Position numbers and translations under genes: made by a program
The notes under the pieces: generated by a model
The model's input: the letters and a program-made list of their open reading frames with translations, nothing else
Database searches by the model: none
What the model was told of the DNA's origin: nothing
Part shown: positions 1 through 3,729 of the stretch, one piece after another
Position numbering within the stretch: the first letter of the stretch is position 1
Layout of the letters: every line of letters starts with the position of its first letter
DNA from: a virus
Lineage: Duplodnaviria > Heunggongvirae > Uroviricota > Caudoviricetes
Reading direction: 5' to 3' (one strand)
IMG/VR virus record: IMGVR_UViG_2563366840_000013
DNA length: 3,729 nucleotides

Positions 1-201
1 GAAAACGCCCTTCGCAGCATTGCCCGTCAGGCTAATTCTGAAATCAAAAAAGCCAGACAGCAGTTTCCGGATAAAAACGTCGATGACATTTGCCGTAGCG
101 TACTGAAGAAGCACCGCGAAACGGTAACGCTGATGGGATTCACACCGACTCATTTAAGCCTGGCAATCGGCATGTTAAACGGCGTCTTTAAGGAACGATG
201 A
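1..201 (+). CDS. 3' end of an upstream CDS (partial, 66 codons, product not recognised)
   Basis: Frame 1 is open from the window edge to TGA at 199-201 (translation ...RETVTLMGFTPTHLSLAIGMLNGVFKER). Followed by a hairpin plus T-run. GC-typical composition. Confidence 0.5.
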   Translation, partial: ENALRSIARQANSEIKKARQQFPDKNVDDICRSVLKKHRETVTLMGFTPTHLSLAIGMLNGVFKER

Positions 202-221
202 ACATGAAAAGCAAAATTATC

Positions 222-247
222 AGGGAGCTACAGGCTCCTTTTTTATT
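222..247 (+). terminator. Intrinsic (rho-independent) terminator after the upstream CDS
   Basis: Stem GGAGC (224-228) pairs with GCTCC (234-238), loop TACAG, followed by TTTTTTATT. Lies about 20 nt after the TGA at 199-201. Confidence 0.6.
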
Positions 248-274
248 GCTCGCATTTACCCCCAAGCGTATTAA
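246..274 (+). promoter_or_regulatory. Candidate sigma70 promoter for the TraR-like operon
   Basis: TTGCTC (246-251) as -35, 17-nt spacer, TATTAA (269-274) as -10, about 25 nt upstream of the ATG at 300. Motif match only; not verified. Confidence 0.3.
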
Positions 275-299
275 CCAACAATTCAGGGATTAATGGAAG

Positions 300-521
300 A
301 TGGCAGACATCATTGATTCAGCATCAGAAATTGAAGAATTACAGCGCAACACAGCAATAAAAATGCGCCGCCTGAACCACCAGGCTGTATCTGCCACTCA
401 TTGTTGTGAGTGTGGCGATCCCATAGATGAGCTAAGACGCCTGGCCGTTCAGGGTTGTCGGACTTGTGCAAGTTGCCAGGAAGATCTGGAGCTTATCAGT
501 AAACAGAGAGGTTCGAAGTGA
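300..521 (+). CDS. TraR/DksA-family C4-type zinc-finger protein (73 aa)
   Basis: ORF of 73 aa with the C-terminal four-Cys motif CxxC...CxxC (HCCECGDPIDELRRLAVQGCRTCASCQ) typical of TraR/DksA-type RNAP secondary-channel regulators. Possible SD AGGGA at 285-289. Stop TGA at 519-521 overlaps the next start. Confidence 0.75.
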   Translation: MADIIDSASEIEELQRNTAIKMRRLNHQAVSATHCCECGDPIDELRRLAVQGCRTCASCQEDLELISKQRGSK

Positions 522-769
522 GCGTAATTCACTCTCAGGCACTGCGTGAAGCGGCAGAGCAGGCAATGCCTGACAACTGGGGATTTGACGCGGACCTTTT
601 CCATGAGCTGGTAACACCATCGATTGTGCTGACACTGCTGGATGAACGGGAAAGAAACCAGCAATACATCAAACGCCGCGACCAGGAGAACGAGGATATT
701 GCGCTAACGGTGGGGAAACTGCGTGTTGAGCTGGAGACAGCAAAAATCAAAACTCAACGAGCAGCGTGA
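518..769 (+). CDS. Hypothetical protein (83 aa), translationally coupled to the TraR-like gene
   Basis: GTG start at 518-520 overlaps the upstream stop (GTGA); SD GAGAGG at 506-511 with 6-nt spacing. Acidic, helical-looking translation, product not recognised. Frame stays open for 52 codons beyond the TGA at 767-769. Confidence 0.55.
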   Translation: MSVIHSQALREAAEQAMPDNWGFDADLFHELVTPSIVLTLLDERERNQQYIKRRDQENEDIALTVGKLRVELETAKIKTQRAA

Positions 770-931
770 GTAGAAGGTGTTATCTCGGATGGAAGTAAGC
801 GTATTGCTGAACTGGAGGCCTGGGTTGAATACACAAGAGCTGCATACGTAAGAGCAAAAGACAAGGGAGATTTGATCAGAGTTATTACCCGCCAACCAAC
901 GGGATTTTACGCTTACGTACCATGTAATTAG
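770..931 (+). other. In-frame open continuation of the 518-769 ORF past its TGA (52 codons to TAG 929-931), no credible own start
   Basis: Codons 770-928 are in the same frame as 518-769 and stop-free (VEGVISDGSKRIAELEAWVEYTRAAYVRAKDKGDLIRVITRQPTGFYAYVPCN). The only in-frame start-like codon is TTG at 872. Could be a gene remnant or a readthrough extension. Confidence 0.3.
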
Positions 932-1067
932 GAATCCTTGAAGTGGCAGCCTAACTGCGGATACACTGAAATGGCGATTTGGTAACATGTTTCGCACAAG
1001 GCTGTTACTACACTTAGAGATAATCAGCCATGATTAAACGCTTTGTAAAAAGTAAAAGGAAATTACA

Positions 1068-1682
1068 ATGAAAAAATCAATACTAATTTTAGGGCTTACG
1101 TTAATTGTCTCATCTCAAATACCATCGGCAATGGCAAAAAATGAATCAAAACTATGGGTTGTTGTTGATCGAACGGAAAGACATACCTGCCCTTCAAGTA
1201 AATGTGGAGTGGCTGGGAAACTATTTTTCAGGGAAGGCGTAGATTTTCTAGAAAAAAAAGGTGAATGGGTTCGTATAACTGAGCCATATTCAGCCTCATG
1301 TGTTGGAGGGGAAAGCGAATATATTAAAGAAGGTAATAAATCCTGCACAAGAAAAAATGGAATCGTTAATGGCAAGTTTTCAGAATGGGTTAAACTTAGT
1401 GATCTTAGCAGTGAAAGGCCATCAGATCCTGCTGAAAATGCGAGCGGAGATGATACTTTAATCAAAGGATCTGATGACTACCGTATATACAAAAAAGAGT
1501 TTTCTTCGGCAGCTAGGAAGTTAATAAATGAAGGGGTCTGCACGGAAAGCGATTTTAAGGAAATCGGAGGGTGGATGGCATCAAGCAATAAGGGTGAAAA
1601 CATCTATTTCACATATTGCGGAGGAATGACGTTGTCGAACAGAATATATCTAGACGTTAAAAGTGGAAAGACTTTTAGATAA
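1068..1682 (+). CDS. Secreted (signal-peptide) cysteine-rich protein with SH3b-like segment, AT-rich cargo gene (204 aa)
   Basis: N-terminus MKKSILILGLTLIVSSQIPSAMA has a basic n-region, hydrophobic core and AxA cleavage motif, with no lipobox. Mature part has 6 Cys. Segment RHTCPSSKCGVAGKLFFREGVDFLEKKGEWVRI resembles bacterial SH3 domains. SD AAGGA at 1056-1060, 7 nt before the ATG. Hand-counted GC of 60-nt lines is about 28-40 percent. Terminator downstream. Confidence 0.8.
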   Translation: MKKSILILGLTLIVSSQIPSAMAKNESKLWVVVDRTERHTCPSSKCGVAGKLFFREGVDFLEKKGEWVRITEPYSASCVGGESEYIKEGNKSCTRKNGIVNGKFSEWVKLSDLSSERPSDPAENASGDDTLIKGSDDYRIYKKEFSSAARKLINEGVCTESDFKEIGGWMASSNKGENIYFTYCGGMTLSNRIYLDVKSGKTFR

Positions 1683-1751
1683 TATGATATTACCAATGAC
1701 AGCATTAATTTAATGCCTCCATAGAATTATCTCCAGGAAGTAAGTATAAGA

Positions 1752-1790
1752 AAAGCCCGCACAATGAGCTGCTGCGGGCTTTGTGTTATT
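1752..1790 (+). terminator. Intrinsic terminator downstream of the secreted-protein gene
   Basis: GCCCGCA (1755-1761) pairs with TGCGGGC (1773-1779), extendable with flanking A/T pairs, 11-nt loop, followed by TTTGTGTTATT. Confidence 0.55.
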
Positions 1791-1975
1791 CGCCATATTT
1801 TATGAAGCAAATACGACACTATAGATAATTAAGCGTTACTGGTTGTCGATTCCTCACTCATTCCTGCTGATGGCTGTCTTCTTGTATGTGCCATTGAAGG
1901 GTAATATCGCGTAAAAAGATACCGGAAGTATCCGCGCCGCCATGATTGTCTTTCTCCTGATGCAGGAAAAGCAGA

Positions 1976-2095
1976 ATGACTAGATCAGCAGCAGAGCGCA
2001 AAGCCGATCAGAGAGCCAAGCAAGCATCATCCGGTATGCGTAAGCTGGAGCTTGTACTTGATGCTCAGGAAATTGAAATGCTGGAGCGTAACTGA
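1976..2095 (+). CDS. Small basic protein (39 aa), possibly the N-terminal part of a TGA-interrupted gene
   Basis: ATG at 1976 preceded by AGGAAAA (1964-1970); in-frame stop immediately upstream at 1958-1960. Translation MTRSAAERKADQRAKQASSGMRKLELVLDAQEIEMLERN. Ends at TGA 2093-2095, after which the same frame stays open to 2314. Confidence 0.45.
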   Translation: MTRSAAERKADQRAKQASSGMRKLELVLDAQEIEMLERN

Positions 2096-2314
2096 GCCAC
2101 GCGCCGCTTCAGGCGTGCGCCTTACGAGTTTGGTGAGTACATAGCATTACTGAGCCGCCAGGATGATGCACGTGTGCGCTGGCGTATAAAATCGATTAGC
2201 AGAAAACGTTGCCGTAAGTGCGGCGAGAGAGTTCCTGTTAATTCATGCCCGTGTAATGGTGACTCACAATACTGGGTGACCAAAGGCTGGCACGAAACAA
2301 AATTAATGATATAA
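2096..2314 (+). other. In-frame continuation after TGA encoding a zinc-ribbon-like segment (72 codons to TAA 2312-2314)
   Basis: Same frame as 1976-2095. Translation ATRRFRRAPYEFGEYIALLSRQDDARVRWRIKSISRKRCRKCGERVPVNSCPCNGDSQYWVTKGWHETKLMI has a CxxC-x9-CxC motif. No ATG in frame; a possible GTG start at 2174 with AGGA at 2160-2163. Confidence 0.35.
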
Positions 2315-2342
2315 ATCTCTGTGACATGTCACGGAGGCGGCA

Positions 2343-2771
2343 ATGAAATTAGACCAGCAATATCTAAAAGATCTACTTATCGCATTCGAAAAAACTCGTG
2401 GCCCTGACACGATGCTTAGTGAACTAGAGGATAATGGCTTTAATAGATATGACCAAGATTTTATTTTCCATATGCGATTATTATGTGACTACGAATTAAT
2501 AGTCAGGGTTGATGGAAAACCTGGGTTCGGTCATATAATGTCCAAAGCGTTAGGGGAAGGTGTTGGATATAGTTGGATCGAAGTACCACTGAGGTTGACA
2601 GCAAGAGGGCATGATTTTATTGCTGACTTACGTCAAAAGGATGTCTGGCAAGCTATAAAAACAAACTTTAAGGATGAGGGAATTAGTACACTTATGAGTG
2701 TTTCAAAATCACTAGCAAAAGGCTTTGCAAAGAAAAAGATAAAAGATATTACAGGAATAGATATTGAATAA
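2343..2771 (+). CDS. DUF2513-like small protein, AT-rich cargo gene (142 aa)
   Basis: Strong SD GGAGG at 2333-2337, 5 nt before the ATG. N-terminus MKLDQQYLKDLLIAFEK and the segment GHDFIADLRQKDVWQAIKTNFKDEGISTLMSVSKSLAKG resemble my recollection of the phage-associated DUF2513 family. Hand-counted GC about 32-40 percent. Terminator downstream. Confidence 0.75.
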   Translation: MKLDQQYLKDLLIAFEKTRGPDTMLSELEDNGFNRYDQDFIFHMRLLCDYELIVRVDGKPGFGHIMSKALGEGVGYSWIEVPLRLTARGHDFIADLRQKDVWQAIKTNFKDEGISTLMSVSKSLAKGFAKKKIKDITGIDIE

Positions 2772-2816
2772 TTCTTAGCATCAAGCAACTACTGCCTTTG
2801 GTGGAAATTATATCTG

Positions 2817-2842
2817 AACTCGCTACGGCGAGTTTTGTTTTA
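2817..2842 (+). terminator. Intrinsic terminator after the DUF2513-like gene
   Basis: AACTCGC (2817-2823) pairs with GCGAGTT (2828-2834), loop TACG, followed by TTTTGTTTTAT. Confidence 0.6.
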
Positions 2843-2854
2843 TGGAGATGATAA

Positions 2855-3022
2855 ATGCACTTCCGAGTCACAGGAGAATGGAATGGAGAGCCATTCAACA
2901 GAGTTATCGAAGCAGAGGACATCAATGACTGCTATAACCACTGGATGATATGGGCGCAGATAGCACATGCAGAAGTAACCAATATTCAAATTGAAGAACT
3001 GAAAGAACACCAAACCGCCTGA
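2855..3022 (+). CDS. Small hypothetical protein (55 aa)
   Basis: ATG at 2855 with SD GGAG at 2844-2847 (7-nt spacing); in-frame TAA immediately upstream (2852-2854). Translation MHFRVTGEWNGEPFNRVIEAEDINDCYNHWMIWAQIAHAEVTNIQIEELKEHQTA. Stop TGA 3020-3022 lies in the loop of the next terminator hairpin. Confidence 0.5.
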   Translation: MHFRVTGEWNGEPFNRVIEAEDINDCYNHWMIWAQIAHAEVTNIQIEELKEHQTA

Positions 3023-3037
3023 TGGCGGTTTTTTATT
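3012..3037 (+). terminator. Intrinsic terminator (8-bp perfect stem)
   Basis: AAACCGCC (3012-3019) pairs with GGCGGTTT (3024-3031), loop TGAT, T-run 3029-3034 then ATT. Confidence 0.7.
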
Positions 3038-3048
3038 GGAGACAAGAA

Positions 3049-3393
3049 ATGTCAGATTTGGCTATGAAGGTTTTGAAATGGCAATCGACTTGCGATGTCG
3101 GCATCAGTAGCGCAACTCTTGCCTCAATCGCATGTGGACTGAAAAAGAATATCTATGGTCATCACTTCGGCGCTCCACATGACGCAGCCGATTTCCGACG
3201 ATGCGTTGCACTTGTTGAGCAGATCCCAGAAATCAGGGATTCATTCGACAAGGTTGCAAAGCGCGTTCCGGCATTCAAAGGAATCCTCAACGAATGGGAT
3301 TCACTCGTTGCTCTGTTGAAGTCTGAAATGAAGACGTACGGGAACAAAGCACCAGAGACTTACAGAAGAATCAGCGAGCTACGCAAGGACTAA
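3049..3393 (+). CDS. Hypothetical protein (115 aa; start moved from the track's 3022 to ATG 3049)
   Basis: The track ORF 3022-3393 would begin inside the terminator hairpin. The in-frame ATG at 3049 has SD GGAG at 3038-3041 (7-nt spacing) and gives MSDLAMKVLKWQ.... GC-typical composition, product not recognised. Confidence 0.65.
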   Translation: MSDLAMKVLKWQSTCDVGISSATLASIACGLKKNIYGHHFGAPHDAADFRRCVALVEQIPEIRDSFDKVAKRVPAFKGILNEWDSLVALLKSEMKTYGNKAPETYRRISELRKD

Positions 3394-3462
3394 CCATAAA
3401 ATAACACCACCTCACACTCGATGAGGCCTGTTCATTGCTCAATGATATCCAGACCTACCATC

Positions 3463-3486
3463 GCCGCATCAATGCGGTTTTTTATT
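3463..3486 (+). terminator. Intrinsic terminator upstream of the AlpA-like gene
   Basis: CCGCA (3464-3468) pairs with TGCGG (3473-3477), loop TCAA, followed by TTTTTTATT. Shares the 14-nt string GCGGTTTTTTATTG with the terminator at 3012-3037. Confidence 0.55.
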
Positions 3487-3513
3487 GCCTGATTTGCAGG
3501 TTCGATTCCCTAT

Positions 3514-3729
3514 TTGGAGATAGCACTCATGCAACACGAACTACAGCCTGATTCACTGGTTGATTTGAAATTCATCATGGCCGATACTGGCTTCGGTAAA
3601 ACCTTCATCTATGATCGGATTAAGTCCGGAGACCTTCCAAAAGCCAAAGTTATCCACGGGCGAGCAAGATGGTTATATCGTGACCATTGTGAATTCAAAA
3701 ATAAGCTCTTAAGCCGCGCCAATGGGTAA
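3514..3729 (+). CDS. alpA: AlpA-family (phage Vis/excisionase-like) HTH transcriptional regulator (71 aa)
   Basis: Translation LVDLKFIMADTGFGKTFIYDRIKSGDLPKAKVIHGRARWLYRDHCEF fits the AlpA/Vis pattern (L..V...TG.s..tIY..i..G.fP.p.K.g.r..W...d...w). SD GGAG 9 nt before the ATG. Complete ORF ending TAA at 3727-3729. Confidence 0.75.
   Translation: MEIALMQHELQPDSLVDLKFIMADTGFGKTFIYDRIKSGDLPKAKVIHGRARWLYRDHCEFKNKLLSRANG

What the first reader, a model, noticed from the sequence alone, without database searches (positions are those of the whole stretch)
1068..1682. AT-rich cargo gene for a secreted, cysteine-rich, SH3b-like protein in a regulator-rich backbone
The gene is compositionally distinct from its neighbours (hand-counted GC about 28-40 percent against about 55 percent in adjacent backbone lines). 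It has its own SD and its own terminator (1752-1790). It encodes a Sec-type signal peptide followed by a roughly 180-aa mature protein with 6 cysteines and an SH3b-like segment. This is the signature of a moron or lysogenic-conversion gene: a periplasmic or surface protein that could act in superinfection exclusion, envelope modification or host interaction. I do not recognise the family.
Basis: partly seen in the sequence, partly recalled or inferred. Interest (0 to 1): 0.55.

Follow-up and report, generated by a model that had tools for sequence, protein, structure and literature searches.

The report
Phage cargo gene for secreted SH3b protein
This is a real accessory gene in a lambda-like E. 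coli prophage that encodes an exported, disulfide-bonded cell-wall-binding-type protein of unknown function, and near-identical or related copies sit on several unrelated kinds of mobile DNA.

Summary

GC is 38% (GC3 30%) against 48-52% in the neighbours.

The window is the distal early-left (pL) region of a lambdoid prophage, between exo and xis. The gene lies in a roughly 2-kb variable slot (817-2806). It occurs in 133 of 5,426 complete E. coli genomes.

It is a mobile single-gene cassette. Bases 926-1684 recur at 85% identity in a P1-like phage-plasmid, with dN/dS 0.075. The 5' non-coding part is more conserved than fourfold-degenerate sites. Relatives are found on a 5.3-kb ColE1-type plasmid, in Pseudomonas integrase islets and in an Aeromonas prophage. 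No gene partner is conserved across these settings.

The C-terminal domain has two helices followed by three strands and one disulfide. No Pfam or NCBIfam model covers it, yet it defines at least 531 protein clusters, nearly all with export signals.

Function is untested. The most likely role is a periplasmic, murein-associated protective factor. The family is catalogued only as phrog_8310, "unknown function".

The parts
817..925 (+). Left junction of the variable slot. Homology to full-length ea22 genes of lambda and Stx phages ends at 816. This stretch is not shared with the P1-like copy.
   Evidence: Local blastn of the window against phages 434, lambda and Stx2a_WGPS8. Alignment with the P1-like copy shows 46% identity over 880-925.
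926..1067 (+). Conserved 5' non-coding part of the cassette. It holds a weak candidate sigma-70 promoter (TTGAAG 938-943, 18-nt spacer, TACACT 962-967) and the SD AAGGA at 1056-1060.
   Evidence: 83% identical (116 of 140 positions) to the P1-like copy, against 59% at fourfold-degenerate sites of the ORF. Both hexamers are invariant between the two copies. The promoter scan did not call a + strand promoter, so the promoter is only inferred.
1068..1136 (+). Signal peptide, residues 1-23 (MKKSILILGLTLIVSSQIPSAMA). The predicted SPase I cut follows A-M-A.
   Evidence: Sequence features, and their conservation in 38 of 39 homologues. No cysteine is present, so there is no lipobox.
1146..1397 (+). 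SH3b domain, residues about 27-110. It contains a CPSxxC pair (C41, C46) and an inserted hairpin carrying C78 and C93.
1413..1679 (+). Conserved RPxDP linker plus the C-terminal domain of two helices then three strands (residues 116-204). Motifs are SDD[YF], GGW.[KA]S, YFTYCGG and N[RK]IYL. C158 and C184 are invariant.
1068..1682 (+). Complete ORF of 204 codons plus stop. Identical or near-identical to WP_000748282/WP_000748281; member of phrog_8310.
   Evidence: dN/dS is 0.075 against the P1-like copy.
1752..1793 (+). Intrinsic-terminator-like hairpin (10-bp stem, 11-nt loop) followed by a U-rich tail.
   Evidence: RNAfold gives -18 to -19.3 kcal/mol, z -2.55. The P1-like copy has a weaker CCCGC/GCGGG hairpin plus T7 at the equivalent distance.

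Best explanation
The gene is a self-contained, horizontally mobile accessory cassette: a 5' control region, the ORF and a terminator. It has been inserted into the variable slot between ea22 and xis of a lambdoid prophage.

Its product is exported by the Sec pathway and cut after Ala23. It is then stabilised by three inferred disulfides (41-46, 78-93, 158-184). It stays in the periplasm as a compact two-domain protein: an SH3b domain of the peptidoglycan-binding type, packed against a previously undescribed domain of two helices and three strands.

The most likely mode of action is inferred, not shown. The SH3b domain docks the protein onto murein. The C-terminal domain then binds or blocks something that must cross or cut the cell wall. 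This would protect the carrier cell from an envelope-directed attack. Exclusion of superinfecting phages is the leading case.

I put the descriptive part (exported, selected, mobile cargo protein with an SH3b domain and a new domain) at about 0.9. I put the protective or exclusion function at about 0.3.
For: Shown by tool results:
- The ORF, SD, signal-peptide features and cysteines are present.
- The model is confident and has an SH3b fold.
- The C-terminal domain is widespread, and most listed full-length members have a signal peptide, lipobox or TM segment upstream of it.
- The location is the lambdoid pL operon between exo and xis.
- The slot holds other cargo in 434, lambda and Stx phages.
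- Only 133 of 5,426 complete E. coli genomes carry the gene.
- The cassette 926-1684 is 85% identical to one in a P1-like phage-plasmid.
- Selection is strongly purifying, dN/dS 0.075. The 5' region is more conserved than neutral sites.
- Relatives occur as the only obvious cargo of a 5.3-kb ColE1-type plasmid, directly after integrases in small Pseudomonas islets and in an Aeromonas prophage.
- No neighbour is conserved across 80 or so loci, so the protein acts alone.
- The gene has lower GC than its surroundings in most contexts.

From established knowledge: SH3b domains of lysostaphin and of phage endolysins bind peptidoglycan. Single periplasmic or lipoprotein cargo genes of phages, such as T4 Spackle, T5 Llp and Cor, act in superinfection exclusion.
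Against: - There is no functional data of any kind.
- PADLOC has no model that matches.
- The protein has no sequence or fold similarity to any known exclusion protein or hydrolase inhibitor.
- No convincing promoter for expression in the lysogen was found.
- In the window the gene is co-oriented with pL, so it could be expressed only during lytic growth.
- Some relatives at about 50% or about 30% identity sit among housekeeping genes. The Vibrio relatives are syntenic chromosomal genes. That fits a general envelope role as well as a defence role.
- Peptidoglycan binding is assumed from the fold alone.
Confidence: 0.4

Rival explanations
1. It is an orphan immunity protein or inhibitor directed against peptidoglycan-degrading enzymes, such as host or environmental lysozymes, T6SS amidase or muramidase effectors, or colicin M and pesticin-type bacteriocins. 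On this reading it is not directed against phages. SH3b positions the protein on murein and the C-terminal domain occludes the enzyme.
Confidence: 0.2
2. It is an auxiliary factor of the phage's own lytic cycle. It would be transcribed from pL under N antitermination and would bind murein to help lysis, to help virion release, or to exclude secondary infection only during lytic growth. This would parallel the stand-alone SH3 proteins proposed as lysis helpers in T1-like phages.
For: The gene has the same orientation as the pL operon, with no strong own promoter. Terminator-like hairpins are frequent in this region (11 found against 3.2 expected), as expected for an antiterminated operon. A stand-alone SH3 gene next to the lysis cassette is reported in Drexlerviridae (PMC13164509).
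Against: In the lambdoid, P1-like and Pseudomonas settings where neighbours were annotated, no lysis genes lie next to the gene. It also occurs where there is no phage at all: a ColE1 plasmid, integrase islets, IS-rich regions, and between umuD and umuC. Pfam reported no DUF7244 match. The conserved 5' region travels with the ORF between phage types.
Confidence: 0.12
3. It is a general envelope or cell-wall maintenance protein, or an adhesion or biofilm protein. It would give the host a niche benefit (lysogenic conversion) with no link to conflict with phages or toxins.
For: Distant relatives are chromosomal and vertically inherited in a Vibrio clade, and sit among housekeeping genes in several alphaproteobacteria. 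Other architectures anchor the same C-terminal domain to the membrane through a zinc-ribbon plus TM segment.
Against: Distribution is sporadic: 77 loci among 185,579 species representatives, using one peptide pattern. The gene is below local GC in most contexts. The close relatives are repeatedly captured by unrelated mobile elements.
Confidence: 0.2
4. It is decaying junk DNA in a degraded part of the prophage, with no function.
For: Its neighbours are remnants: a truncated ea22, a umuD-like fragment and a regulator with an internal stop. IS1 has disrupted or deleted the gene in some strains. Two of 36 IMG/VR copies are frameshifted.
Against: dN/dS is 0.075 with dS 0.75. 34 of 36 copies are intact. 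The model is confident and compact. The family is deep and conserved.
Confidence: 0.03

Closest known systems
phrog_8310 / NCBI 'hypothetical protein' WP_000748282 family
   Same: Full-length match, E 1.8e-136 over residues 1-204 of 204. Identical or near-identical proteins are annotated in E. coli prophages and in Escherichia phage Chlobot.
   Different: Nothing differs: this is the family itself. It carries no functional annotation, and no paper mentioning the accession was found.
Bacterial SH3b cell-wall-binding domains (Pfam SH3_3 PF08239), e.g. the lysostaphin SH3b domain, SH3b domains of phage endolysins and of NlpC/P60 peptidases, and B. anthracis GBAA_2967
   Different: The protein has no catalytic domain attached. 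It is periplasmic in a Gram-negative host. The barrel carries a CPSxxC pair and a disulfide-stapled inserted hairpin. This member scores below the Pfam gathering threshold. Ligand binding is untested.
Phage morons and lysogenic-conversion genes of lambdoid phages (bor, lom; Cor and T5 Llp lipoproteins; T4 Spackle and Imm)
   Same: It is a single small envelope-targeted protein encoded by an AT-rich insert between conserved phage genes, with its own terminator. It is present in a minority of related phages.
   Different: It has no sequence or fold relation to any of them. It is not a lipoprotein or membrane protein. The promoter is unproven. The same cassette also rides on non-phage elements.
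Stand-alone SH3 protein (DUF7244) next to the lysis cassette of T1-like coliphages (PMC13164509)
   Same: It is a phage-encoded SH3-only type protein in a phage of Gram-negative bacteria, with a hypothesised interaction with murein.
   Different: It belongs to a different family: Pfam reported no DUF7244 match. It has an extra C-terminal domain and a signal peptide, sits far from the lysis genes and occurs on temperate elements.
Small inhibitor or binding domains of the helix-plus-sheet type (MapZ extracellular subdomain 2, cystatin, BLIP-like, PepSY)

Membership tests
phrog_8310 (phage protein family, unknown function) | Full-length profile match | tested here: met
   E 1.8e-136, residues 1-204 against profile positions 1-204.
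SH3b / Pfam SH3_3 (PF08239) | Sequence score above the Pfam gathering threshold | tested here: not met
   16.2 bits against a cut-off of 27, E 0.012, residues 40-72. Homologues do pass: 29 of 48 relatives, best E 1.6e-14, and precomputed PF08239 hits exist for several homologues.
SH3b / Pfam SH3_3 (PF08239) | SH3-like beta-barrel fold | tested here: met
SH3b / Pfam SH3_3 (PF08239) | Binding to peptidoglycan or another cell-wall polymer | not testable with these tools
   This needs a sacculus pull-down or NMR titration.
Phage moron (Hendrix-type accessory transcription unit) | Present between genes that are adjacent or differently filled in related phages | tested here: met
   Lambda, 434 and Stx phages share 1-533 or 1-816 and 2807 onward, but not 817-2806. 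434 carries two reverse-strand membrane-protein genes in the slot.
Phage moron (Hendrix-type accessory transcription unit) | Nucleotide composition distinct from neighbours | tested here: met
   38.0% GC and GC3 29.8%, against 48-52% in the neighbours.
Phage moron (Hendrix-type accessory transcription unit) | Own terminator | tested here: met
   Hairpin at 1752-1782 plus a U-rich tail, -18 to -19 kcal/mol, z -2.55. This is a prediction only.
Phage moron (Hendrix-type accessory transcription unit) | Own promoter | tested here: inconclusive
   The scan found no + strand promoter. The 142-nt 5' region is conserved above the neutral level (83% against 59%). It contains a candidate matching 8 of 12 consensus positions, TTGAAG-18-TACACT.
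Phage moron (Hendrix-type accessory transcription unit) | Expression from the repressed prophage | not testable with these tools
   This needs RNA-seq, 5' RACE or proteomics of a lysogen.
Bacterial lipoprotein (lipobox, SPase II) | L-[AS]-[GA]-C lipobox at the end of the signal peptide | tested here: not met
   There is no cysteine before residue 41. The LPAM_1 hit is weak (E 0.067) and reflects only the hydrophobic N-terminus. About a dozen distant relatives do have a lipobox.
Known anti-phage defence or superinfection-exclusion proteins (PADLOC-DB v2; T4 Sp/Imm, Cor, Llp, SieA/B) | Sequence or structural homology to a described system | tested here: not met
Known anti-phage defence or superinfection-exclusion proteins | Reduced plating or DNA entry of challenging phages | not testable with these tools
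   Experimental.
Periplasmic lysozyme inhibitors (Ivy, MliC/PliC, PliG, PliI) | Homology to one of these families | tested here: not met
T1-like stand-alone SH3 (DUF7244) lysis-module protein | DUF7244 match and position next to the holin, endolysin and spanin genes | tested here: not met
   Pfam lists only SH3_3 and LPAM_1. The gene lies between ea22 and xis, far from the lysis genes.

The most novel reading that the evidence does not exclude
The protein may found a new class of single-gene, periplasmic, murein-anchored protective factors. These would be built on a so-far undescribed extracytoplasmic domain (SDD[YF]...GGW...YFTYCGG, one disulfide, at least 531 clusters). The cassette would be traded between lambdoid phages, P1-like phage-plasmids, small ColE1 plasmids and integrase islets because it blocks an envelope-crossing step of competing phages or of cell-wall-degrading toxins.
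Probability: 0.25. Interest if true: 0.65.

Novelty: new member of a known kind. Interest (0 to 1): 0.42.

Why it matters
Accessory genes in the variable slots of temperate phages have been a rich source of defence and lysogenic-conversion functions. Almost all characterised examples act in the cytoplasm or are membrane proteins or lipoproteins.

This case is different. It is a soluble periplasmic protein with a cell-wall-binding module and an uncatalogued second domain. It is under strong purifying selection. It has been captured independently by at least five kinds of mobile element across several genera of Gammaproteobacteria.

That pattern argues for a portable benefit that needs no partner gene. 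The test is cheap: clone about 0.9 kb and challenge with phages, bacteriocins or lysozyme. Independently of function, the C-terminal domain deserves a family entry, because neither Pfam-A nor NCBIfam covers it.

Tried and rejected
- A PDB profile search with the C-terminal domain returned only de novo designed TIM barrels, and no individual stretch passed. I treat this as a summed repeat or low-complexity artefact.
- PADLOC, NCBIfam and PDB sequence searches were negative.
- I looked for a conserved partner gene. All-against-all clustering of about 1,100 flanking ORFs from 80 or so loci found none outside one Vibrio clade. A Pfam census of 150 immediate neighbours was heterogeneous.
- The Pseudomonas islet genes gave only weak KilA-N and DUF6971 hits.
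- Rfam found nothing relevant.
- The 5' UTR fold is not better than shuffles, z -1.21.
- A 13-codon upstream ORF (1030-1071) overlaps the start codon as ATGA. It is not conserved in the P1-like copy, so I dismissed it.
- Upstream regions from other genera share only the SD, so no family-wide promoter motif exists.
- Repeats at the insert boundaries are short two-copy matches and are probably chance.
- My strict terminator finder detected hairpins downstream of only two of 18 homologues. An own terminator is therefore not a family-wide trait.

Full report
**Where the window comes from.** The 3,729-bp window is the distal part of the early-left (pL) operon of a lambdoid prophage, read in the direction of pL transcription. 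Bases 1-3038 are 98.8% identical to Escherichia phage Chlobot. There the segment lies between exo and xis-int. Bases 1-3497 are about 98% identical to prophages in many E. coli chromosomes, and one of those prophages also matches the last 256 bases.

The gene order in the window is as follows:
- an orf of phrog_303 (1-201)
- a TraR/DksA zinc-finger gene (300-521)
- a truncated ead/Ea22 gene (518-769)
- the target ORF (1068-1682)
- a umuD-like fragment (about 1836-1943)
- a phrog_536 regulator broken by a stop codon (1976-2314)
- a DUF2513 gene (2343-2771)
- phrog_676 (2855-3022)
- phrog_1229 (3022-3393)
- a TorI/AlpA-type excisionase (3514-3729)

**Checking the observation.** The ORF coordinates are exact. 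AAGGA lies 7 nt upstream of the ATG. The N-terminus, MKKSILILGLTLIVSSQIPSAMA|KNES, has the charged, hydrophobic and A-x-A parts of a Sec/SPase I signal. In 38 of 39 homologues an equivalent charged-then-hydrophobic segment precedes the first conserved residue. About a dozen distant homologues have a lipobox instead.

The six cysteines are at residues 41, 46, 78, 93, 158 and 184. Each is conserved in at least 90% of homologues. The pairs 41/46 and 78/93 are lost together in two relatives, P0081 and P0082. C158 and C184 are invariant. I therefore infer three disulfides, which fits a periplasmic location.

The terminator proposed at 1752-1790 is a 10-bp GC-rich stem with an 11-nt loop and a U-rich tail. 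Its predicted energy is -18 to -19 kcal/mol, z -2.55. The consensus scan missed it only because of its loop-length limit.

GC content is 38.0%, with GC3 29.8%. The neighbouring genes are at 48-52%. The DUF2513 gene nearby is equally AT-rich.

**The protein.** The sequence searches gave the following:
- Pfam gave only a sub-threshold SH3_3 hit.
- NCBIfam, PADLOC and the PDB sequence search gave nothing.
- PHROGs gave a full-length match to phrog_8310, 'unknown function'.

An AlphaFold2 model built on 39 homologues is confident: pLDDT 90.4, with the linker also above 90.

**A new domain family.** I searched 1.84 billion representative proteins with a profile of the C-terminal domain. It found 531 clusters, 402 of them below E 1e-10. 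Among the 150 listed, the match nearly always ends at the protein's C-terminus. It occurs in these arrangements:
- alone after a signal peptide or lipobox, in proteins of about 100 aa
- after an SH3b domain, the commonest arrangement among the 48 longer members scanned
- after a cytoplasmic zinc ribbon plus a TM segment
- in single cases, after ankyrin, IalB, HIRAN or Imm_superinfect domains

No Pfam-A or NCBIfam model covers the domain. The invariant or near-invariant positions are S135-D136-D137, C158, D162-F163, G167-G168-W169, S172, Y180-F181-T182-Y183-C184-G185-G186, N191, Y194-L195 and G200.

**Evidence that the gene is mobile cargo.**

(i) Lambda, 434 and Stx2 phages share the window's flanks. 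They match 1-533 or 1-816, and 2807 onward, but not 817-2806. Phage 434 has two reverse-strand membrane-protein genes in that slot.

(ii) The gene is present in 133 of 5,426 complete E. coli genomes. Every copy whose surroundings I examined lies in this same lambdoid segment. In contrast, 4,606 genomes match some part of the window. Only one of 50,697 phage records carries it.

(iii) Bases 926-1684, meaning 142 nt of 5' sequence plus the ORF, are 85% identical to a segment of a P1-like phage-plasmid of E. fergusonii. There the gene follows hot and humD. dN/dS between the two copies is 0.075, with dS 0.75. The 5' non-coding part is 83% identical, against 59% at fourfold-degenerate sites. The 5' region is therefore under constraint and travels with the ORF.

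(iv) More distant relatives turn up in other mobile settings:
- Copies at 60-69% identity lie directly downstream of a tyrosine integrase in small Pseudomonas islets.
- One lies in an Aeromonas prophage.
- One is in an IS-rich region.
- One lies between umuD and umuC on another element.
- One is the only obvious cargo of a 5.3-kb ColE1-type plasmid of Citrobacter braakii.

(v) The gene is below local GC in most of these contexts.

(vi) No neighbour is conserved across about 80 loci, so the protein works without a dedicated partner.

Some relatives at 30-50% identity are chromosomal. A Vibrio clade has a syntenic, TM-anchored version.

**Regulation.** The consensus scan finds no + strand sigma-70 promoter upstream. 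Within the conserved 5' block I see a weak candidate: TTGAAG at 938-943, an 18-nt spacer, then TACACT at 962-967. It matches 8 of 12 consensus positions and is invariant between the lambdoid and P1-like copies. That is a lead, not proof. The gene is co-oriented with pL, so read-through transcription under N antitermination during lytic growth is certain in principle. Expression in the lysogen is open.

**Mechanism.** Four things are shown or strongly inferred: export, disulfide stabilisation, an SH3b fold, and a compact two-domain body. The rest is inferred. I propose that SH3b docks the protein on murein and that the C-terminal domain engages a target at or in the cell wall.

The cassette is kept by phages, phage-plasmids, a small plasmid and integrase islets alike. 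The benefit is therefore likely to be to the carrier cell, not to one phage's life cycle. I favour protection against an envelope-crossing attack, with superinfection exclusion first and inhibition of murein hydrolases second. My confidence in that function is only about 0.3.

The rival readings are a lytic-cycle helper, a niche-adaptive envelope protein, and junk DNA. I weigh them in the rival section of this report. Junk is excluded by the selection signature.

**Comparison with known systems.** This is a member of phrog_8310 and of the SH3b structural class. It behaves like a lambdoid moron in position, composition and terminator. The promoter and lysogen-expression criteria of a moron remain unmet or untestable.

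It is not homologous to T4 Sp or Imm, Cor, Llp, SieA/B, or the Ivy/MliC/Pli inhibitors. It is also not homologous to the DUF7244 stand-alone SH3 proteins recently noted beside T1-like lysis cassettes (PMC13164509). No paper mentions the protein accession.

**Verdict.** The function is unresolved. This is an ordinary kind of feature, a phage accessory gene, with an uncharacterised and moderately interesting product. It is a widespread, uncatalogued extracytoplasmic domain fused to SH3b, on a cassette shared by several mobile-element types.

Noticed in passing
window 1836-1943 (+); L021 3681-4073; L015 4019-6411: The gene family recurs next to UmuD-like genes. A umuD/humD-like fragment lies just downstream in the window and is 73% nt identical to the humD of the P1-like element. 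In that element an intact humD directly precedes the homologue. On another element a homologue sits between umuD and umuC. This could be shared cargo history or a functional link.
   Followed up: partly
window about 958-1667 and about 1012; L018 2288-2985; L156 746-1443: IS1 has repeatedly hit this AT-rich cassette. In strain YSP8-1 it replaces bases 958-1667 and deletes the gene. In ATCC 8739 it sits about 55 nt upstream of the ATG, cutting the ORF off from the conserved 5' region. Further strains show IS1 within 1000-1800 (H41, H62).
   Followed up: partly
window 1976-2314 (+): A phrog_536 'transcriptional regulator' is split by an in-frame stop at 2093-2095 into a 39-aa and a 46-aa piece. 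RefSeq marks it 'internal stop' in some strains, but other strains have an intact 112-aa version (WP_001129736.1).
   Followed up: partly
window 2343-2771 (+): The DUF2513 gene is as AT-rich as the target (36% GC, GC3 29%) and lies in the same variable segment, 817-2806. It is probably a second, independent cargo gene. It matches phrog_585 (unknown function) and has no PADLOC hit.
   Followed up: partly
window 518-816 (+): The ead/Ea22 gene is truncated. Homology to full-length ea22 of Stx phages and lambda runs to base 816, but the reading frame stops at 769. This marks the left recombination joint of the variable segment.
   Followed up: yes
window 222-240, 2816-2835, 3012-3031, 3463-3478 (+): Terminator-like hairpins follow several of the small genes: 11 in the window against 3.2 expected from shuffles. 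That fits an operon read by an antiterminated polymerase. The one at 3463-3478 corresponds to the annotated terminator just before pI and xis in phage 434.
   Followed up: no
window 3039-3729: The window is mosaic at its right end. Identity to phage Chlobot stops at 3038. Beyond that it carries phrog_1229 and a TorI/AlpA-type excisionase instead of Chlobot's lambda-type xis. It matches Stx and 434-type phages over 3031-3482.
   Followed up: partly
L011 (pABWA45_1) and plasmid hits H83-H98: A fragment of this lambdoid prophage, from DUF1317 to int and including the target gene, has been captured between IS26 copies on large plasmids. The hosts are E. coli, Klebsiella, Enterobacter and Citrobacter.
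   Followed up: partly
L003 6402-12411; L007 537-6065: Small Pseudomonas islets have a conserved layout: a tyrosine integrase, the SH3b homologue, a KilA-N-like protein, then proteins of 105, 130 and 337 aa with no family assignment. This is possibly an undescribed small integrative element. In P. monsensis it is inserted beside S-type pyocin loci.
   Followed up: partly
window 1030-1071 (+): A 13-codon upstream ORF (MIKRFVKSKRKLQ*) ends in ATGA, overlapping the start codon of the target. It is shortened to 8 codons in the P1-like copy, so it is probably not functional.
   Followed up: yes
upstream of homologues in L003, L007, L017, L028, L029, L157: Most Pseudomonas, Aeromonas and Citrobacter homologues appear to start at TTG, preceded by a conserved ACAAGGAG SD. 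The P1-like copy starts at GTG, and only the E. coli lambdoid copy uses ATG.
   Followed up: no
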